Sequence record: KF055347
Reading direction: 5' to 3' (one strand)
DNA length: 64,000 nt
Source of the DNA: Escherichia phage JH2
The notes beneath the pieces were generated by a model. That model saw only the letters and a program-made list of their open reading frames with translations. It was not told the origin of the DNA and did not search any database. Positions 6,508 through 49,878 of this stretch are shown here, in pieces; the first letter of the stretch is position 1, and every line of letters begins with the position of its first letter. A program made the position numbers and the translations under genes.

Positions 6508-6773
6508 TTCCTCGTTTTAAGAACTGCTAAGATTTCTTTAGAGTCTGGTAAGAACCATGTGTAGTGATTCTCTTTGATTTCTGGATGAGTGTCAACCTTT
6601 ATTTTACACTCTTTACCAACATGCTTAAGCTGTGCTGTGACACCTTGCATAAAGATATGACACATCACGTTGTCCATAATGGTTGGTGAGAAATCAACCC
6701 GCATATAAGTTTCTTTTGGTCGTGGTAGCAGTAAGTACCCTTCTACATAGAAAGTGTCTTCATTCTCTGTCAT
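6504..6773 (-). CDS. hypothetical protein
   Basis: 89-aa ORF, 4-nt overlaps at both ends. Confidence 0.45.
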   Translation of the reverse strand: MTENEDTFYVEGYLLLPRPKETYMRVDFSPTIMDNVMCHIFMQGVTAQLKHVGKECKIKVDTHPEIKENHYTWFLPDSKEILAVLKTRK

Positions 6774-7039
6774 TGCTGTTTGTTTCCTAATAAAATCATA
6801 TCAATAAGGTTATTAGCTTTGATTGTGCACTGGTAAAAACCATCACGATAAAACTCAAGGGCTGCTGCCACATCACTACCAGTATTACCTTTGACAGTGA
6901 ATCTTGATTCTTCTTGAGTATACTTGTCACTCTCACTTACTTGGGAGTTTTTGAATGTACTGTTCACTTTGCTCGTTGAACACCCTGACATAATTATCAG
7001 TAACACAAACATTATAAAACTCTGGCTTAGTCTTTTCAT
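6770..7039 (-). CDS. putative o-spanin (outer-membrane lipoprotein, Rz1-like)
   Basis: 89 aa; signal peptide with lipobox IMSG-C; overlaps the 3-prime end of the upstream TM protein gene out of frame. Confidence 0.45.
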   Translation of the reverse strand: MKRLSQSFIMFVLLIIMSGCSTSKVNSTFKNSQVSESDKYTQEESRFTVKGNTGSDVAAALEFYRDGFYQCTIKANNLIDMILLGNKQQ

Positions 7040-7280
7040 ACGTTAGTACCTCTTTTGTATGCTTATTCTTAGCAAGCACATCTTTCAAATCATTTTTGTA
7101 ATTGGTGCTGAGTGTGGCTAAACCTTCCTGATAAGCATCTTTGGCAACACTTATTAGTTTCTCATTATTTAGCTCAGCTTCAGCAACTTGATAATCTCTG
7201 TAAGAGTATCCTCCCCAGACACCTGCCCCAACTAAGAAAACAATTATGAAAGTAGCTTGACAAAACTCTTTAAATGTCAT
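6933..7280 (-). CDS. putative i-spanin (Rz-like, N-terminal TM plus periplasmic helical domain)
   Basis: 115 aa; single N-terminal TM ATFIIVFLVGAGVWGGY then charged helical region; overlapped by a lipoprotein gene. Confidence 0.45.
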   Translation of the reverse strand: MTFKEFCQATFIIVFLVGAGVWGGYSYRDYQVAEAELNNEKLISVAKDAYQEGLATLSTNYKNDLKDVLAKNKHTKEVLTYEKTKPEFYNVCVTDNYVRVFNEQSEQYIQKLPSK

Positions 7281-40771: not shown

Positions 40772-41875
40772 ATGACAATACTGTACAAACAAAATAAAGA
40801 CGGCTCTTTTAGCGTCTGGTCATGCGTTGCTGTAGGTGACAAAGTTGTTACCACGTATGGCAAAGAAAATGGCAAGATGATGTTTGAAGAGTATACAGCA
40901 GAACCTAAAAACATCGGTAAAAAGAATGAGCGTAACGCTGAACAACAAGCTCTCTTTGAAGTTGCTGCAAAGTATAAAAAGCAGGTTGACCGCAAAGGTT
41001 ATGCTTACACAAAAGAGTCTGCACAGAATACTGAGAAGGTAGGTGTACAGCTTGCTCATGATGCTGCAAAGGTTAGCCATGCAAAGTATCTGAAGTTCCC
41101 TGCTGATGCTCAACCGAAACTTGATGGTGTCCGTTGTAGGATTTCAAGGCACTTGAGTATTGGCAGTGTATTTACAGCATATTCTCGTGAGAATACTGTT
41201 TACAAAATCCCTACTGAACTAATACCTGACATTATGGCAATGTTAAGGCTCCACAAAGATGTTGATGAATTTGATGGAGAGATTTATGCTCATGGGTGGG
41301 ACTTAGAAGATATCGTCTCCATGATTAAAAATGAAGACAATCCTGACAGACACTTGCTCAAGTTTTACTGGTATGATATCTGCGACAGTACTAAGACGTG
41401 GCCTGAGCGTAGAGATATCATTGAGACTTCACCATTGAATGACTTTAGAGACGGCTGTAAAGTTGTTCCTGTTAAGTCTCGTCGTGTGAACTCTTGGGAA
41501 GAGTTTGATGAAGCTCATGATAAGTGGGTTGAAGCTAAGTTTGAAGGTGCAATGTACCGTTCAATCTCTGAAGAATCTTTCTACGAGTGTTGTCACCGTT
41601 CATACTTCTTGATTAAGCACAAGAAGATGCACACTGAAGAGTTTAAAGTGACTGGTGTCAAGACCGATAAACGTGGTCATGGCAAGTTCGTTGTAGAGAC
41701 TCTTCCTAACGTCTTTGTAGATGTATCATGGAAGACTACTCATGAGAAGAAACAGTATCTTGCTGAGCATCCTGAAGAGTTTATCGGGAAACCTTTAACG
41801 GTTCAGTTCCAGAAGATGACTCGTAAGGGGTCTTTACAGTTCCCTGTTGGTCTAGTTATACGAGATTATGAATAA
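40772..41875 (+). CDS. ATP-dependent DNA ligase
   Basis: adenylation motif KLDGVRC (KxDG); start at ATG 40772 after GAGGA RBS; longest ORF begins 40736. Confidence 0.75.
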   Translation: MTILYKQNKDGSFSVWSCVAVGDKVVTTYGKENGKMMFEEYTAEPKNIGKKNERNAEQQALFEVAAKYKKQVDRKGYAYTKESAQNTEKVGVQLAHDAAKVSHAKYLKFPADAQPKLDGVRCRISRHLSIGSVFTAYSRENTVYKIPTELIPDIMAMLRLHKDVDEFDGEIYAHGWDLEDIVSMIKNEDNPDRHLLKFYWYDICDSTKTWPERRDIIETSPLNDFRDGCKVVPVKSRRVNSWEEFDEAHDKWVEAKFEGAMYRSISEESFYECCHRSYFLIKHKKMHTEEFKVTGVKTDKRGHGKFVVETLPNVFVDVSWKTTHEKKQYLAEHPEEFIGKPLTVQFQKMTRKGSLQFPVGLVIRDYE

Positions 41876-43931: not shown

Positions 43932-44192
43932 ATGAAAATTGAACACTGCTATGAGTCTGATGGAACACCCATTCGTTGTCCACATTGTGGGTGTACAGAC
44001 TTGCAAGGTGAAGTTCATATGATTGTTAATGGTCATATAGCTGAAGAAAGTACTACATGTGTTGGTTGTGGTGAGCATCTATCATTCTGGGCTTATGGTT
44101 CATACCAACCTACACCACACTTAATCTACCATAGCAATAAAGCTGTGAAGAATGTTATCAACTGGTTCATTAAGAAAGGATTTACAAAATGA
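43932..44192 (+). CDS. hypothetical zinc-ribbon protein
   Basis: 86 aa; CPHCGC...CVGCG. Confidence 0.45.
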   Translation: MKIEHCYESDGTPIRCPHCGCTDLQGEVHMIVNGHIAEESTTCVGCGEHLSFWAYGSYQPTPHLIYHSNKAVKNVINWFIKKGFTK

Positions 44193-44734
44193 TTAAATTA
44201 ATCTTTGCAAGTGGTGAAAATGGTGAGTTTGGTACTCCAACTGGTATGCCGTGGCCTCGACATAAACAGGATATGCAAGAGTTTAAGAGACTCACTAAAA
44301 ATAACTTAGTAGTGATGGGGAATGAGACTTTTAAGACTCTGGGTAGTAAACCTTTACCAGAACGTGCAAACCTCATCTTAACAAATTCTGTACCATACTT
44401 AGGCATAGACTTTGGCAAAGATGACGTAATGTATGCTAAAGCCAGTAAAGAGTCATTTGGAGCATTTTTGAAATATCTTGATAGCTCTATTGATGAAGAT
44501 ATCTTTGTAATTGGTGGTGCAGGTGTCCTTGTCAATGCTTTACCGTATGCTAGTGTGGTGTTCCATACTGTTTTCCATAAAGTTACTGAAGAAGCCACTG
44601 TGTATTTACCTTTTGAAAACTTCTTTGAGAAGCTGTATGATAACCGTGTATTTACAAAGGTACAGTCAAAACCATCAGAGGATGGTAAAGCAACTTTTGA
44701 AATTTATGTTCCACAAGTAAAAGGACACTTTTGA
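44189..44734 (+). CDS. frd: dihydrofolate reductase
   Basis: 181 aa; N-terminal IFASGENGEFG..GMPW resembles the DHFR fingerprint; immediately upstream of thymidylate synthase. Confidence 0.75.
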   Translation: MIKLIFASGENGEFGTPTGMPWPRHKQDMQEFKRLTKNNLVVMGNETFKTLGSKPLPERANLILTNSVPYLGIDFGKDDVMYAKASKESFGAFLKYLDSSIDEDIFVIGGAGVLVNALPYASVVFHTVFHKVTEEATVYLPFENFFEKLYDNRVFTKVQSKPSEDGKATFEIYVPQVKGHF

Positions 44735-44735
44735 T

Positions 44736-45635
44736 ATGTCACAAGCAGATACAAGTTACAAAAATATCCTGAACCATGTTTTATCCGTTGGTGAACTGCG
44801 TACTACACGAACTGGAGATGTTATCTCTGCATTTGCTCCACCTCAGTTTCGTTTTGATATGCGAACTGGTTTCCCGCTCTTAACATCTAAACAGGTGTTT
44901 ACACGGCAAGTTATTGGGGAAGCTTTATGGTTCCTGAATGGTGAGAATAAGCTTGGTGAACTCCGTTATCGTACTTGGGGTGAAAATGATGGGGAACGCT
45001 GGACTATCTGGTCAGATGATTTTAAACGCTGGTTAAGCTCTAATTATTCTTCTGAACAAGATTGGTTAGAAGATGCAGGTGGAAGAATCTATGGGGTTCA
45101 GTGGAGAAACTTTGAAGGCCATAACGGTTGTGTTGTAGACCAGTTAGATGCCTTAGTAACAAAGATGAAGGGTGATATCACAGACCGTTACATGCTTGTT
45201 AATGCTTGGAATGCAGCAGACATTGCAGCAAACTCAATGGCTTTAGCACCTTGTCATGTTCTGTTTCAGATTTATATCACTAATGAGGGTGAAGTTGACT
45301 TACAATGGTATCAGCGTTCAGTAGACACCTTTTTAGGACTTCCATTTAATATTGCATCTTATGGTTTTATTCTGGAAGTTCTTTGTAAGATGACTGGATA
45401 CACTCCACGGTACTTGATAGGTGTCTTTGGGGATACTCAGATTTATCAGAACCATATGAAACAGGTTTATGAACTGATGAACAATGAAGAGTTCCATGCA
45501 CCAACTTTTGAGATTGGTCTACAACTTAATACTTTAAGTGACCTAAAACATCTCACTGCAAGTGACTTTATCGGTGGCATTAACAACTACCAACATGCAG
45601 GAAAGATTGAAGCACCTTTATCAGTAGGTAAGTAA
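44736..45635 (+). CDS. thyA: thymidylate synthase
   Basis: 299 aa; catalytic-Cys context ALAPCHVLFQ; adjacency to DHFR; a dCMP hydroxymethylase-type relative cannot be excluded. Confidence 0.7.
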   Translation: MSQADTSYKNILNHVLSVGELRTTRTGDVISAFAPPQFRFDMRTGFPLLTSKQVFTRQVIGEALWFLNGENKLGELRYRTWGENDGERWTIWSDDFKRWLSSNYSSEQDWLEDAGGRIYGVQWRNFEGHNGCVVDQLDALVTKMKGDITDRYMLVNAWNAADIAANSMALAPCHVLFQIYITNEGEVDLQWYQRSVDTFLGLPFNIASYGFILEVLCKMTGYTPRYLIGVFGDTQIYQNHMKQVYELMNNEEFHAPTFEIGLQLNTLSDLKHLTASDFIGGINNYQHAGKIEAPLSVGK

Positions 45636-45644
45636 AACAAAAAA

Positions 45645-45664
45645 GGCTCCTTTTTATGGGAGCC
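45645..45664. terminator. bidirectional terminator-like hairpin between convergent blocks
   Basis: GGCTCC (45645-45650) pairs with GGAGCC (45659-45664), A/T-rich flanks. Confidence 0.5.
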
Positions 45665-45671
45665 TTAAATT

Positions 45672-46043
45672 TTACTTTTCAGTATTCTTTGTGTTCTTTT
45701 CAGTAATAGCTTGGAGGGCTGATACTGATTGAGCCAGATTGTTCACACTATCAGAGAATTTATCAAGGGTCTTAGTAAGTTTTGCGTTCTCACCCTTAAC
45801 ATTCTCTAACTGGACTTTCTGGTTCTCCATCCCTAGCTGAAGCAGCCTCATATCAGACTGTAAATCACGAATAGCTGAATAATTACTTTTGGAATAATTA
45901 TCTAACTGCTGTAACTTTGTTGTGATAGACACTTCTTGTTTACCACTTGCAACCTGCATTGTGGTATACATCCCAATAACACTAAAAATACCAACTACAA
46001 TTGCACCAATATTGTTTTTAAAAGCTTCCTCTAGCCACTTCAT
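45672..46043 (-). CDS. hypothetical membrane-anchored coiled-coil protein
   Basis: 123 aa; N-terminal TM IGAIVVGIFSVIGMY then helical region; last gene of the late block. Confidence 0.45.
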   Translation of the reverse strand: MKWLEEAFKNNIGAIVVGIFSVIGMYTTMQVASGKQEVSITTKLQQLDNYSKSNYSAIRDLQSDMRLLQLGMENQKVQLENVKGENAKLTKTLDKFSDSVNNLAQSVSALQAITEKNTKNTEK

Positions 46044-46237
46044 TTATTCTCCCCCTTAAAAGCTTTTTCTAAGTTATCTACGAACTCATCATCAATAGGT
46101 GTGTCTGTTTTACTCGCAAGGTATCTTGCAAGTCTAAAGAACACTTTCTCAATCATGTATTCACTTAGAAGGGATAAAATGAGTTTCCAGAAGAAGCTAC
46201 CTAGATTTTTTAGAAGAATTGCTAGGATTGTAGGCAT
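46040..46237 (-). CDS. hypothetical small hydrophobic protein
   Basis: 65 aa; hydrophobic N-terminus then acidic tail. Confidence 0.4.
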   Translation of the reverse strand: MPTILAILLKNLGSFFWKLILSLLSEYMIEKVFFRLARYLASKTDTPIDDEFVDNLEKAFKGENK

Positions 46238-46316
46238 TTAATCACCTCATCAGCCAAGATGGTGAGAATACCCATAAAGAATATTAACACCATCTTAACA
46301 ATCAGTCAACAAGGGA

Positions 46317-48662
46317 TTAAGCAGTTCTCACCCAAGCCATTAACTTATAGAACTGGTTAATTACACTAAATGCTGAACCAGAACCTGTACCACCAGTGTT
46401 ACCACTTACTGTGTGGCTGTGAGCACCAATACCAACTGAGTGAGCGTGGTTACCATTTGATGCAGCAGTACCACTTACTGAGTGTGAGTGATTCCCAGCA
46501 CTACCCGTTTGTACGGTATTTCTGTTACCATCAGAATCCCAATCACCCCTTGTACCACTTGGTTGCGCACCAGTAATATAACCATGTGTATGAGCACCTG
46601 TTGTATTCGTTGAACCACTCACTGAGTGGGTGTGAGCACCAGTAGTGTTAGTGGTTTTAGTACCGTAGTCAAAGCTAGAGGTTGTCGCAGAGAAACTATG
46701 CGTGTGTGAAGGTAAGTTACCAACAGCTAACGTCACAGAATCTGAACCACCTGTTGTAGCAACATCTGAACCGTTTGCTGCTGCAATTCTGATAGTTCTA
46801 CCAACACCATTGTTGAGGTACGTCCAAGTTAGACCAGGAAGTGCTGTATTAGGGTTAACATTGCTGTTAAACCAAGTTACAATACCTACTGGATAGATTT
46901 TATTAAGGTCTGTAGAGTCACTAATTGCCTGTGCAATCTTCTGGTCAGTTTCAGCTTTAGTGTATGCACCAATATCTGAAGGGGTTGGTTTAAAATCAGT
47001 TGTGTAAAGCTGTGCTTCCCCAGCATATCTGCCGTCTTTGTCATAGGCATAGGTGAATGTTGCCAGTCCATTTGAGCCATACACAAAAGAGATTCCTCTT
47101 GCATGTGCAGCAGTCTTATTAGAGTGAGCAACATGAATTGCCAACTCTTTCAGTCCACTAGTAACAGCATTGTTTCTGACAAAACCTGAGTACCCAAGAT
47201 TAAACCCTGAAGGGTTTTCAAGGTTATCTACAGATAATGTCATTAAGGATTGGTTTAATAACTGAGTTTTAACAAAATATCTAGCATCTAAGTTAGAAAA
47301 GTTCGAAGGTTGAACTTGACCAGTGATTGCTAAATTCTTATTCGCAACAATTGCTGATGGTTCAAGGGCAATTTGAGTACCAGAGTAACTATTGTTTAAG
47401 GTTACCACATTAGAGTTTGGGCCACCTACACCTAACCACCACCTCGATACGTTCGCGGTATCCACACCACGGATATATAGCGGTTGCCCCTGTGTCAAGT
47501 TTCTTAATACTAAACCTTCGTTATTTGATACGATAGTCTGCACATTCACGAAAGTGTTTGCCACATTAAGTTTAGGGAGATTACTCAAAGTAGCTGCTGG
47601 AATATATCTAGAGTCAATATTAGCCCAATCAGAAGGTTGAACTTGACCAGTGATTCTGAAGTCCTTGTTTACTGCGACATGCCCATTGTCAAGTCTAAGA
47701 TAAGAACCATACACATAGTTGCTGATGAATACAGCAGGTGTATTATCACCATTTCCTACATACCACTTACCAGAACCATCATTAGCTTCGGCTTTAACGT
47801 ATAGTGCAGCATTTGCTACAGTATTTTTCAACCTTAAAGCAGCACTGTCACTAATAATAAGTAGGTTTCTGCTAAACGTGTTAGTGCCAGTGAAATTGTT
47901 ATTAGCAGCTAACTGTGCAAATCTCTGATTAGCAACTGTCTGTGTGAAGTATCTAGCATCTAAGTTAGAGAAGTCAGAAGGTTGAACTTGACCAGTGATT
48001 GCTAAAGACTTATTAACAGAGACATTGCTTGCAATAGTCAAAGCTGAGTCATATTTATTATTGTACAGTTGCACTGCATCAGAGCCATTTTTACTAATAC
48101 CAACCAACCATCTAGCTGAACCATCTAGGTTTACACCTTCAATATATTGTGCATTGTTTGCATTTTGGTTTCTAAGGCGAAGTAAGTTAACATCACCTTG
48201 AATGTTCTGAGTTCCAGAGAATGTGTTTGTGACAGCAAGCCTTGCATATCTTGCATCATTCTCTTCATTAGTTCTCATACCAAGCTCATTAGGGCTTGGC
48301 TTATTCAGAGTATGATAAACAGTTGCCGACCTTGAAGCATCTGCAATAGTTAGTTTAAGACCATTTGCGTTGATTTTAAAAGTCTTTAAAACATCCCCAA
48401 TATTAATCTCAGAAGAACCTGTAGGGTCAAAGACTGCCTTACCACCATAAAGTAACTTAACAATACCTAAGTCACCCGTCATAGTACTACCAGCAATCTG
48501 AACAAATCTCTCAAGTTTAAAAGACGCTAAGAAGTCTTGATAGGTCATTCGACGGTCTTCATCACCTAGCATTTCAGGTCTCTTTTTAACCCTGACATGA
48601 AGAAGGTCATCTGAACGGATTGTGTCGATTGAGTTTAATTCACTCAACTTGTAATCTGCCAT
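46317..48662 (-). CDS. long tail fibre protein with triplicated internal module and His-rich C-terminal tip
   Basis: 781 aa; ITGQVQPS(D/N)(F/W)(S/A)N(L/I)D(A/S)RY occurs three times; C-terminal HTHS/HSHS/HAHS motifs shared with the neighbouring fibre gene. Confidence 0.7.
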
Positions 48663-48682
48663 TATAAATTTTCCTCTTAAAA

Positions 48683-48698
48683 GGGGCTATAAAGCCCC
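48683..48698 (-). terminator. hairpin between the two fibre genes
   Basis: GGGGCT-ATAA-AGCCCC followed by a T-run on the minus strand; preceded by TTTACA. Confidence 0.4.
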
Positions 48699-48708
48699 TG
48701 TAAAGAAA

Positions 48709-49878
48709 TTAAGCTGTTCTTTGCCATACATAAACTACAAAAGATGGTTGCTCAACACTAAATGCTTGACCAGCACCAACAGACCCTGTAGTTCCTGAAT
48801 GGGTGTGTTCTCCAACTCCAGTAATGCTAACCGTTACATTGTGTGAATGTGCCCCGATAGCAACAGTGTGTGAGTGCGAGCCAATAGCCACCGTGTGATT
48901 ATGATTACCATTAGACGCAGCAGTACCACTGATGGAGTGAGAGTGGTTACCAGCACTATCTGTCTGAACAGTATTCCTGTGCCCATCCCTATCCCAGTCC
49001 CCTGACGCACCAGTATCTTGGTAACCAGTGACATATCCATGCGTGTGAGCACCTGTTGTATTTGTTGAACCACTCACAGAGTGTGTATGAGCACCAGTAG
49101 TGTTTGTGGTCTTAGTACCGTAATCAAATGACGAGGTTGATTTAGTACCATAATCAAACGCACTAACTGAGACATTTGCACCATGACTATGATTTCCACC
49201 TGTTAGGTAGATAGAATGACTGTGTGATGGTAAATTGTTGCTAGACAAACTAACACTACTAGAGCCAAAGTTACTACCGACTGGCCTTGAGTTATCACTG
49301 TAGCCTACTAATGCCCGACCTTTTGATACCAACTCCCAAGTACCTCCACAAATTAGGTAGGTAGCTGGGTTAGCAGAGTTCATCGAAAGGTGCAATGTAC
49401 CAACAGGATAAGAAGCCTGAACAGCCTTATACAAGTTATTTACTGCTCTTGCTGTAGCGTACTTATCTGCATCCTCATTATAAAGGTTAGATGTTGTCCA
49501 GTTCTGGACATTACTTAAACCAACCTGCGCCTTAGTTGTATTGTGTGGGTTGCTCTTGTCATTAATATGCTGTTGAATAAGGCTATTAACCTCTTCTGAA
49601 GACATAATCTGTAGATTTGCTCTTGCCTCAGCTACATTAACAATATCTGATAAGTTATTTGCAGCAACTAACTGAAGAGCATTAATAACATTGTCTAGAC
49701 CAATTTGTGTCTTAGTAACACCATGAGGGTTATTTCTTAGGCTTGAGTGTGGAGCAAGTAGTTGCTCAAGAGTACATCTCTTATCCTCAATACCCTGCTT
49801 AAGATGGAAGATATCACTAAGGTCAATTGGTAAGGCTGCTTGAGGCAAGGCACTAATTTGAATTTCACCTACTGCCAT
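48709..49878 (-). CDS. tail fibre protein with His-rich C-terminal tip
   Basis: 389 aa; C-terminal ~120 aa near-identical to the long fibre tip with repeated HxH motifs. Confidence 0.65.
   Translation of the reverse strand: MAVGEIQISALPQAALPIDLSDIFHLKQGIEDKRCTLEQLLAPHSSLRNNPHGVTKTQIGLDNVINALQLVAANNLSDIVNVAEARANLQIMSSEEVNSLIQQHINDKSNPHNTTKAQVGLSNVQNWTTSNLYNEDADKYATARAVNNLYKAVQASYPVGTLHLSMNSANPATYLICGGTWELVSKGRALVGYSDNSRPVGSNFGSSSVSLSSNNLPSHSHSIYLTGGNHSHGANVSVSAFDYGTKSTSSFDYGTKTTNTTGAHTHSVSGSTNTTGAHTHGYVTGYQDTGASGDWDRDGHRNTVQTDSAGNHSHSISGTAASNGNHNHTVAIGSHSHTVAIGAHSHNVTVSITGVGEHTHSGTTGSVGAGQAFSVEQPSFVVYVWQRTA

What the first reader, a model, noticed from the sequence alone, without database searches (positions are those of the whole stretch)
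45672..46237. Two small membrane proteins at the distal end of the late operon
After the tail fibres, the last two genes encode a 65-aa protein with a hydrophobic N-terminus and a 123-aa protein with one N-terminal TM and a coiled-coil domain, followed by a bidirectional terminator. This position and size pattern fits holin or antiholin-like proteins, or a fibre-associated membrane factor.
Basis: inference. Interest (0 to 1): 0.35.

Follow-up and report, generated by a model that had tools for sequence, protein, structure and literature searches.

The report
Felix O1-type phage lysis gene pair
The two small genes after the tail fibres of this Felix O1-like phage are real and are most likely a cell-lysis pair: a homologue of the PM2 phage lysis factor P18, plus a candidate holin; both links are already in the literature and databases, so the finding is sound but largely ordinary.

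Summary
Two translationally coupled minus-strand ORFs (46040..46237, 65 aa; 45672..46043, 123 aa) follow the gp37-like tail fibre and end at a bidirectional terminator. The window is a Felixounavirus, and the 123-aa protein is 100% identical to phage JH2 gp076.

The 65-aa protein belongs to Pfam PF26925 'Phage_PM2_Gpl' / phrog_402, the family of corticovirus PM2 P18. Secondary sources report that P18 is needed for outer-membrane disruption during lysis. A Felix O1 homologue of P18 was already noted in 2007. In other phages this gene lies directly next to endolysins of four Pfam families, or next to holins (T in RB49-like phages, P17 in PM2). Its 92%-identical SUSP1 orthologue is a fitness gene in a published CRISPRi-ART screen, with about 15-fold smaller plaques.

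The 123-aa protein has one N-terminal TM helix and a roughly 85-residue helix. It sits where T4-type phages carry holin T, and many records annotate it 'holin'. It matches no validated holin family, and its SUSP1 orthologue scored 'Not Fit'.

The lysis reading is supported by homology and context. The 'fibre-associated factor' reading is not. The finding is already known, and the mechanism of the P18 family remains open.

The parts
46040..46237 (-). 65-aa PM2 P18 / gp l-family lysis protein (Felix O1 gp78, SUSP1 agp027 orthologue). Predicted as three helices: a hydrophobic N-terminal helix, an amphipathic FF helix, a T-x-T-P-x-D-D turn and an acidic C-terminal helix.
   Evidence: phrog_402 E 4e-22, and PM2 P18 itself hits phrog_402 at E 8e-14. 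Near-identical proteins carry the precomputed Pfam hit PF26925 Phage_PM2_Gpl. hhalign of the family alignment against PM2 P18 gives probability 88%, E 3e-6. Invariant residues are F33, F34, T44, T46, D49 and D50.
45672..46043 (-). 123-aa bitopic membrane protein: TM helix ~12-32 plus a long helix/coiled coil. It is the candidate holin (Felix O1 gp79, JH2 gp076, SUSP1 agp028 orthologue).
   Evidence: phrog_4038 E 2e-71 with no Pfam family. It is 100% identical to JH2_076 and named 'Holin' by UniRef and several GenBank records. Hydropathy is and the AF2 model. The family is narrow, with only 2 real distant relatives among 1.8 billion representatives.
45643..45666 (.). Bidirectional intrinsic terminator shared with the convergent thymidylate synthase gene (44736..45635 +).
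   Evidence: equals t79/t80 in Felix O1 Table 2.
46281..46309 (-). Conserved sigma70-like promoter element (TTGACT, 17 nt, TG-TAATAT) upstream of the 65-aa gene.
   Evidence: a consensus match only; the count in the region is not above shuffles. It is invariant in the window, FelixO1, JN01, Mijalis and SUSP1.
46244..46316 (-). Strong conserved RNA hairpin in the fibre/65-aa intergenic region. Its outer stem pairs with the Shine-Dalgarno sequence of the 65-aa gene.
   Evidence: Folding energy -28.2 kcal/mol, z = -5.5. The 9-bp arms AAGATGGTG/CACCATCTT are invariant. Function was not tested.
6770..7280 (-). Overlapped two-component spanin pair of the same phage: i-spanin 6933..7280 and o-spanin lipoprotein 6770..7039. 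This is context: the phage already has a canonical outer-membrane-disruption system.
   Evidence: tblastn with the Mijalis i- and o-spanins gives 77-81% identity. This is the JH2 spanin family of Kongari 2018.

Best explanation
The two genes form a lysis module of a Felix O1-like myovirus.

The 65-aa protein is a member of the PM2 P18 (gp l) family. It is a small three-helix protein with a hydrophobic N-terminal helix that would hold it on or in the cytoplasmic membrane. It is inferred to act at the end of infection, together with the holin and endolysin, to complete envelope breakdown. In PM2 the homologue is reported to be required for outer-membrane disruption after the holin P17 has permeabilised the inner membrane.

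The 123-aa protein is a bitopic inner-membrane protein whose long helix probably oligomerises. It is the most likely holin, or holin-like partner analogous to P17. It would accumulate in the inner membrane and, on triggering, let the soluble T4-lysozyme-type endolysin (encoded elsewhere in the genome) reach the murein. The spanin pair at 6.8-7.3 kb then also acts on the outer membrane.

Shown here: family membership of the 65-aa protein, the gene contexts, and the architecture of both proteins. Shown by others: the lysis role of PM2 P17/P18 and the fitness defect of the SUSP1 orthologue. Inferred: that either protein acts in lysis in this phage, that the 123-aa protein is the holin, its membrane topology, and the step at which the 65-aa protein acts.

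Sub-claim confidences: 65-aa protein is a P18-family member, 0.9. 65-aa protein acts in lysis, 0.7. 123-aa protein is the holin, 0.45.
For: (1) Homology. The 65-aa protein and PM2 P18 hit the same PHROG, phrog_402, at 4e-22 and 8e-14. hhalign gives probability 88%. Near-identical proteins are precomputed as PF26925 Phage_PM2_Gpl.

(2) Literature. P17 is described as the holin and P18 as required for OM disruption in PM2 (PMC9502842). P18 homologues in Felix O1 and RB49 were stated in PMC1950889.

(3) Context. In 9 independent lineages the P18-like gene abuts an endolysin of family Phage_lysozyme, GH108, Peptidase_M15_3 or M15_4. In RB49-like phages it lies between gp37/gp38 and Phage_holin_T, followed by a bidirectional terminator, which is the same layout as here. 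In PM2 it follows P17. In one contig it precedes a spanin-like lipoprotein pair.

(4) Recurrent partner. Small TM-plus-coiled-coil proteins flank the P18-like gene in PM2, SU10-like phages and marine contigs. The SU10-like one hits phrog_1009, and the 123-aa protein hits it weakly, E 0.015.

(5) Need for a holin. The Felix-type endolysin is a soluble Phage_lysozyme with no N-terminal TM or SAR segment.

(6) Function. SUSP1 agp027 (92% identical) is 'Fit' (score 2.27, p 0.0007). A single guide gave EOP ~0.3 and plaques of 52-69 versus 616-1201 units. The authors report no major polar effects.

(7) The curated CPT annotation calls the 123-aa homologue 'putative holin' and the 65-aa homologue 'putative cytoplasmic membrane protein'. 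Whichard 2010 lists gp79 among holin candidates.
Against: No experiment addresses lysis for either protein in any Ounavirinae phage.

The 123-aa protein has no detectable similarity to T holin, PM2 P17 or any Pfam holin family.

Its SUSP1 orthologue agp028 was 'Not Fit' (0.20, p 0.6, only 3 guides). The same screen also missed T4 endolysin, so false negatives occur.

The phage has a canonical spanin pair, so an additional OM-disrupting factor looks redundant.

In 7-11-like and SU10-like podophages the P18-like gene sits among head/tail genes rather than next to an endolysin.

Felix O1 RT-PCR put ORF79 maximal at 5 min and ORF78 at 25 min. That is odd for lysis genes, although the same table also places the capsid gene at 5 min.

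The primary PM2 paper could not be read, so its claims are cited second-hand.
Confidence: 0.6

Rival explanations
1. The roles are reversed. The P18-like 65-aa protein is the essential membrane-permeabilising (holin-like) component. The 123-aa coiled-coil protein is an accessory regulator, for example of timing, or is dispensable.
For: Several phages carry a bare two-gene [endolysin][P18-like] unit with no other TM protein nearby (L012, L065, L066/L068, L067). That layout is the usual signature of endolysin plus holin. In SUSP1 only agp027 is Fit and agp028 is not. Most family members have a genuinely hydrophobic N-terminal helix, with KD 1.9-2.1 in several.
Against: In PM2 the holin function was assigned to P17 and OM disruption to P18. 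PM2 P18 lacks the N-terminal hydrophobic extension. The hydrophobic helix here contains two Lys and is borderline for a TM helix. In cassettes the gene lies downstream of the endolysin, which is the spanin position rather than the holin position.
Confidence: 0.18
2. The 123-aa protein is a spanin-like periplasm-spanning protein (a second i-spanin type) rather than a holin.
For: It has an N-terminal TM plus a long helix of about 13 nm, the i-spanin architecture. It gives weak PHROG hits to Rz-like spanins (E 0.012 and 0.066).
Against: There is no partner lipoprotein. The embedded +1-frame lipobox ORF (45902..45994, MVFLVLLGC) is interrupted in Mijalis and absent in Zyzzx. A complete i/o-spanin pair exists elsewhere in the window. 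The PHROG hits are non-significant coiled-coil matches.
Confidence: 0.08
3. The pair, or the 65-aa protein alone, is a tail-fibre assembly or fibre-associated membrane factor, the positional equivalent of T4 gp38.
For: It lies immediately after gp37-like fibres in Felix-like and RB49-like phages and next to fibre genes in SU10-like phages. A knock-down giving small plaques with near-normal EOP could also reflect poorer adsorption.
Against: Most homologues are next to endolysins, far from fibres. RB49-like L048 and Hafnia phage Zyzzx carry a separate gp38-type adhesin as well as the P18-like gene. The fibre C-termini of carrier phages are not consistently related. gp78 and gp79 are not in the Felix O1 virion proteome. 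PM2 has no tail.
Confidence: 0.06
4. They are superinfection-exclusion or immunity-type membrane proteins, like T4 Imm/Sp, expressed from their own promoter.
For: They are small membrane proteins. A conserved sigma70-like promoter lies upstream. RT-PCR maxima are early or middle in Felix O1.
Against: A fitness defect appears in a simple single-phage infection. The family is tightly linked to endolysins. There are no PADLOC or NCBIfam hits.
Confidence: 0.04

Closest known systems
Corticovirus PM2 lysis factors P17 (gp k) and P18 (gp l) (Krupovic, Daugelavicius & Bamford 2007, cited via PMC9502842 and PMC1950889)
   Same: The 65-aa protein is a sequence homologue of P18: same PHROG, Pfam PF26925, and the shared motif LL-x-E-x-x-I-...-A-x-x-L/I-A-x-K-T/S-x-x-T-x-x-D-D/N-E. 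In both phages the P18-type gene is adjacent to a small single-TM protein with a coiled-coil tail, at the end of the late/structural gene block.
   Different: The gene order is reversed: P17 then P18 in PM2, P18-like then the 123-aa protein here. The 123-aa protein is not detectably homologous to P17 (hhalign probability 0.2%) and is more than twice as long. The 65-aa protein has an extra hydrophobic N-terminal helix that PM2 P18 lacks. PM2 has no spanins (it is on Kongari's spanin-less list), whereas this phage has a full spanin pair.
T4-type holin T, and the gp37 - gp38 - t arrangement (RB49-like Krischvirus variant)
   Same: The layout is identical: gp37-like fibre, then P18-like gene, then a single-N-terminal-TM protein, then a bidirectional terminator. 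T is also a one-TM (class III) holin with a large C-terminal domain.
   Different: There is no sequence or profile similarity to Phage_holin_T (PF11031). The C-terminal domain here is predicted as one long helix, not the domain found in T. No RI/RIII antiholin partners were identified.
Two-component spanins (lambda Rz/Rz1; JH2-type in this phage)
   Same: In many phages the P18-like gene occupies the position downstream of the endolysin where spanin genes normally lie, and PM2 P18 is reported to do the spanin job. The 123-aa protein resembles an i-spanin in architecture.
   Different: Neither protein has a lipobox or cysteines. No o-spanin partner is present. The genuine spanin pair is encoded 39 kb away in the window.
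phiKT gp28 'disruptin' (cationic peptide replacing spanins; recalled from memory, not tested here)
   Same: It is a small non-lipoprotein factor proposed to disrupt the outer membrane after holin/endolysin action in a spanin-less phage.
   Different: gp28 is strongly cationic. The 65-aa protein is net neutral (9 K+R, 9 D+E) with an acidic C-terminus. No similarity was tested or expected.

Membership tests
PM2 P18 / gp l family (Pfam PF26925 Phage_PM2_Gpl; phrog_402): 65-aa protein | Significant match to the family profile, shared with PM2 P18 itself | tested here: met
   phrog_402 E 4e-22 for the 65-aa protein and 8e-14 for PM2 P18. hhalign of the family alignment against P18 gives probability 88%, E 3e-6 over 42 columns. 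Proteins 97-100% identical carry precomputed PF26925. The local Pfam copy lacks this model, so no direct Pfam hit was possible. Pairwise BLASTP alone finds nothing.
PM2 P18 / gp l family: 65-aa protein | Small stand-alone protein (about 50-85 aa) with the conserved FF ... T-x-T-x-x-D-D core | tested here: met
   In the 30-sequence alignment A4, F33, F34, T44, T46, D49 and D50 are invariant and E26 is conserved in at least 90%. All 178 relatives are 56-85 aa.
PM2 P18 / gp l family: 65-aa protein | Encoded within or next to lysis genes | tested here: met
   Here it is coupled to the putative holin only. Elsewhere it is adjacent to endolysins of 4 Pfam families, to holin T, to P17 or to a spanin-like pair in 12 of 14 lineages examined.
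PM2 P18 / gp l family: 65-aa protein | Required for outer-membrane disruption at lysis | not testable with these tools
   The only indirect evidence is the SUSP1 orthologue knock-down, which gives ~15-fold smaller plaques and EOP ~0.3.
Holins (functional class): 123-aa protein | Small phage membrane protein with at least one TMD and a hydrophilic, charged C-terminus | tested here: met
   One TM at ~12-32 (KD 1.72). The C-terminal 90 residues are hydrophilic and the protein has 15 K+R and 13 D+E.
Holins (functional class): 123-aa protein | Membership of an experimentally validated holin sequence family | tested here: not met
   No Pfam holin family matched. The best 'holin' PHROG is phrog_1296 at E 0.043. 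hhalign against T holin gives probability 0.2% and against PM2 P17 0.2%.
Holins (functional class): 123-aa protein | Gene linked to the endolysin gene | tested here: not met
   The endolysin is not in the window. In Mijalis it is about 33 kb away. Felix-like lysis genes are described as scattered.
Holins (functional class): 123-aa protein | Lethal, timed permeabilisation of the inner membrane; loss abolishes or delays lysis | tested here: inconclusive
   This could not be run here. Published knock-down of the SUSP1 orthologue agp028 was 'Not Fit' with only 3 guides. The screen also misses T4 e.
T4 holin T family (PF11031): 123-aa protein | Match to the Phage_holin_T profile | tested here: not met
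   There is no hit, whereas the positional equivalent in GEC-3S scores 4.5e-61.
i-spanin (Rz-like): 123-aa protein | N-terminal TMD plus a periplasmic coiled coil | tested here: inconclusive
   The architecture fits. The topology is undetermined because the flanking charges are balanced.
i-spanin (Rz-like): 123-aa protein | Cognate o-spanin lipoprotein gene embedded, overlapping or adjacent | tested here: not met
   The embedded lipobox ORF is not conserved. The neighbours are the P18-like gene (no Cys) and a terminator. The true spanin pair is at 6770..7280.
Antiholins (T4 RI/RIII type, lambda S107 type): either protein | Sequence similarity to a known antiholin, or a dual-start motif on a holin gene | tested here: not met
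   No PHROG lysis-inhibition family matched among the hits. Each gene has a single ATG start with its own SD.

The most novel reading that the evidence does not exclude
P18-family proteins are a widespread, third kind of phage envelope-disruption factor. They are neither spanin nor cationic 'disruptin', have no lipid anchor and no cysteines, and act from the inner membrane. On this reading they are non-redundant even in phages that also carry spanins. That would explain why the SUSP1 orthologue is a fitness gene while the annotated holin, endolysin and spanins were not scored Fit. In Felix O1-like phages the 65-aa protein, not the 123-aa 'holin', would then be the key lysis determinant.
Probability: 0.2. 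Interest if true: 0.6.

Novelty: already known. Interest (0 to 1): 0.28.

Why it matters
Felix O1-like phages are widely used for Salmonella typing, detection and biocontrol, yet their holin has never been identified experimentally. Published genome notes disagree: 'putative holin' for Moogle/Mijalis, 'holin not identified' for Meda.

Three things can now be tied together for the 65-aa gene: the PM2 P18 family, the systematic linkage of that family to endolysins, and the unexplained fitness phenotype of SUSP1 agp027. The authors of that screen listed agp027 as a gene of 'completely hypothetical function'. The link gives it a concrete, testable function.

More broadly, how P18-type proteins break the outer membrane is unknown, as is why they coexist with spanins. 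That is a modest open question in phage lysis. It is not a new kind of system.

Tried and rejected
(1) Embedded o-spanin inside the 123-aa gene (45902..45994, MVFLVLLGC). Rejected: the frame is broken in Mijalis and absent in Zyzzx.

(2) Homology of the 123-aa protein to T holin, PM2 P17 or the SU10-like 101-aa TM/coiled-coil neighbour. hhalign probabilities were 0.2-3%.

(3) Full HMMER search of the 123-aa protein against 1.84 billion representatives. It found only two true distant relatives (114 and 128 aa, 25-28% identity) plus coiled-coil noise, so no link to a wider family.

(4) The word-based homologue search of the 123-aa protein returned only proteins at least 96% identical.

(5) Foldseek of the 65-aa model against viral structures returned only uncharacterised family members and small cyanophage proteins.

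(6) NCBIfam and PADLOC gave nothing meaningful.

(7) Co-variation of the P18-like gene with a particular fibre C-terminus was not seen.

(8) SUSP1 agp089 (Fit, near the spanins) as a rival holin. Rejected: it is an acidic soluble 53-aa protein.

(9) The primary PM2 lysis paper (Mol Microbiol 2007) is not held, so PM2 functions are cited from secondary sources.

(10) The UE-M6 holin paper concerns a different kind of phage lysis system.

Full report
**Identity of the window.** Megablast of 44000-49000 finds 254 phage records. These are Felixounavirus and relatives: ~92% nucleotide identity to KhF1 and 88.6% to Salmonella phage Felix O1. The local gene order is identical to Felix O1 ORF76-81: two tail-fibre genes, two small genes, then convergent td and frd. 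The 123-aa protein is 100% identical to Escherichia phage JH2 gp076.

**Checking the observation.**
- The ORFs are exactly as described: 46040..46237 (-) is 65 aa and 45672..46043 (-) is 123 aa.
- They overlap by ATGA, and each has a strong Shine-Dalgarno sequence.
- The 123-aa protein has one hydrophobic segment at ~12-32 (KD 1.72) followed by ~90 hydrophilic residues.
- AlphaFold gives helix 2-30 and a single helix 37-122, at low confidence (pLDDT 66). Pfam gives only sub-threshold coiled-coil-type hits.
- The 65-aa protein has a hydrophobic N-terminal helix with two lysines (KD 1.56, borderline). With a 30-sequence alignment it is modelled as three helices at pLDDT 86.
- The hairpin at 45643-45666 has T-runs on both strands (-20 kcal/mol, z = -5.4). 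It matches terminators t79/t80 listed for Felix O1 in 2010.
- The upstream gene is a gp37-like fibre.

**The 65-aa protein.**
- It hits phrog_402 at 4e-22.
- All near-identical database proteins carry the precomputed Pfam family PF26925. The context tool names this family 'Phage_PM2_Gpl'. The local Pfam copy lacks the model, which is why one search found nothing.
- I fetched PM2 and translated gp l/P18 (51 aa) and gp k/P17 (53 aa).
- P18 hits the same phrog_402 at 8e-14. It aligns to my family alignment with hhalign probability 88%, E 3e-6 over 42 columns. Plain BLASTP is blind to this.
- According to PMC9502842, P17 is a distinct class of holin and P18 is required for outer-membrane disruption in PM2.
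- PMC1950889 (2007) states that P18 homologues occur in PaP3, Felix O1, RB49 and three cyanomyophages. The homology is therefore already published.

**Genomic contexts of the family.** I used tblastn on annotated phages, a profile search, contig look-ups with Pfam-annotated neighbours and a viral-contig scan.
- The P18-like gene lies directly beside an endolysin in nine independent lineages.
  - Phage_lysozyme: a Shewanella prophage, Vibrio P22-like contigs, marine contigs, and phages where the pair sits between gyrB- and topoIV-like genes.
  - GH108 + PG_binding_3: Vibrio phage 1.061.O and L067.
  - Peptidase_M15_3: L065.
  - Peptidase_M15_4: L057.
- In RB49-like Krischvirus it lies between the distal fibre (or the gp38 adhesin) and Phage_holin_T, followed by a bidirectional terminator. 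This is the same layout as in the window.
- In PM2 it follows P17.
- In one contig it precedes a 92-aa protein plus a lipoprotein that looks like a spanin pair.
- Only in 7-11-like and SU10-like podophages does it sit among structural genes. In the SU10-like case it is preceded by a 101-aa TM-plus-coiled-coil protein.
- A small TM/coiled-coil protein recurs next to the P18-like gene in PM2, in SU10-like phages and in marine contigs. In the marine contigs the TM is sometimes C-terminal.

This linkage is strong guilt-by-association for a lysis function. It argues against a fibre-specific role.

**Published functional data.** The CRISPRi-ART screen of phage SUSP1 (PMC11879866) covers the orthologues.
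- agp027 is 92% identical to the 65-aa protein.
  - It is one of 19 'Fit' genes (score 2.27, p 0.0007, 6 guides).
  - A single guide gave EOP ~0.3 and plaque sizes of 52-69 against 616-1201 for the control.
  - The authors list it among genes of 'completely hypothetical function'.
  - They report no major polar effects.
- agp028 is the orthologue of the 123-aa protein.
  - It was 'Not Fit' (0.20, p 0.6, 3 guides).
  - The SUSP1 endolysin and spanins are also not among the Fit genes.
  - The same method missed T4 endolysin, so this negative result is weak.

**The 123-aa protein.**
- It belongs to phrog_4038 (unknown function) and has no Pfam family.
- A full HMMER scan of 1.84 billion representatives finds only two true distant relatives: 114 aa at 25% identity (a Hafnia phage Zyzzx type) and 128 aa at 28% identity.
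- Profile comparison shows no similarity to T holin, PM2 P17 or the SU10-like 101-aa protein.
- A weak shared hit to phrog_1009 (0.015 here, 7.5e-5 for the SU10-like protein) hints at a distant link.
- Many GenBank and UniRef records call it 'holin' or 'putative holin'. The manually curated CPT genome Mijalis does so too.
- Whichard et al. named gp79 as one of five holin candidates. The Meda announcement says no holin was identified.
- The case for a holin therefore rests on four things: its architecture, its position equivalent to T, its coupling to the P18-like gene, and the need for a holin. That need follows because the Felix-type endolysin is a soluble Phage_lysozyme.
- It is not an i-spanin of a two-component system. 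The phage has its own overlapped spanin pair at 6770..7280 (the JH2 family of Kongari 2018). The embedded lipobox ORF inside the 123-aa gene is not conserved.

**Mechanism proposed.** The pair is a lysis module.
- The 123-aa protein most likely acts as the holin or holin-like partner in the inner membrane.
- The P18-family protein acts with it at the final stage of envelope disruption.
- Alternatives considered: reversed roles (the P18-like protein as the real permeabiliser), a spanin-like role for the 123-aa protein, a fibre-assembly factor, and superinfection exclusion. Each is less well supported.

**Regulation, noted in passing.**
- The 79-bp gap upstream of the 65-aa gene carries TTGACT-17-TG-TAATAT and a 9-bp inverted repeat. 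Both are invariant from Felixounavirus to Mooglevirus and Suspvirus.
- As RNA the gap folds into a -28 kcal/mol hairpin (z = -5.5) whose outer stem pairs with the Shine-Dalgarno sequence.
- Felix O1 RT-PCR placed ORF78 and ORF79 at different times from ORF76/77.
- The pair may therefore have its own promoter and translational control, rather than being merely the end of the late operon.

**Verdict.**
- Both annotations pre-exist in the literature and databases, so novelty is 'already known'.
- The residual interest is the unresolved mechanism of the P18 family and the connection to an unexplained fitness gene in SUSP1.

Noticed in passing
window 46244-46316 (-), intergenic between the fibre gene and the 65-aa gene: A sigma70-like promoter (TTGACT-17-TG-TAATAT) and a 9-bp inverted repeat are invariant across Felixounavirus, Mooglevirus and Suspvirus. 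As RNA the gap folds at -28 kcal/mol (z = -5.5) and the fold sequesters the Shine-Dalgarno sequence of the 65-aa gene. This could be a translational or transcriptional switch for the lysis pair.
   Followed up: partly
window 6770-7280 (-): An overlapped i-spanin (115 aa) / o-spanin (89 aa, lipobox LIIMSGC) pair of the JH2 family lies 39 kb from the candidate holin. The endolysin lies outside the window. This confirms the scattered lysis genes typical of Felix O1-like phages.
   Followed up: yes
L006 (GEC-3S 153806-154735), L048: RB49-like T4 relatives carry a 79-aa P18-family gene exactly between gp37/gp38 and holin t. It is annotated only as hypothetical and might be an unrecognised lysis component of these T-even-like phages.
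   Followed up: partly
L053/L054 (4663-4890), L057 (745-969), L069 (Vibrio phage 1.061.O gene 64, 40960-41292): A recurrent class of small proteins has an N-terminal coiled coil and a C-terminal TM (tail-anchored topology), encoded in or next to lysis cassettes. In L053/L054 and L057 these proteins sit directly beside the P18-like gene. The Vibrio one is about 13 kb from that phage's P18-like gene and hits the holin PHROG phrog_689 at E 1e-4. These may be mirror-image analogues of the 123-aa protein.
   Followed up: partly
L069 (Vibrio phage 1.061.O, whole 41.7 kb record): No credible lipobox ORF was found anywhere in this P18-carrying phage, which is consistent with it lacking an o-spanin. 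PM2, PaP3 and the cyanophages reported to have P18 homologues are all on Kongari's spanin-less list.
   Followed up: partly
protein hits P0056, P0089; records MG065664 and MG065668: Near-identical copies of the Felix-type proteins occur in assemblies labelled Phocaeicola plebeius and Staphylococcus hyicus, and in records labelled 'Campylobacter phage A132/A126'. These are probably contamination or mislabelled records.
   Followed up: no
window 46317-48662 (-): The tail fibre combines three gp37_trimer repeats with a C-terminal His-x-His repeat region (GAHTHS..., Phage_fiber repeats). It is only ~40% identical to the Mijalis fibre although the downstream small genes are ~90% identical. The fibre and the lysis pair therefore evolve at very different rates.
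   Followed up: no
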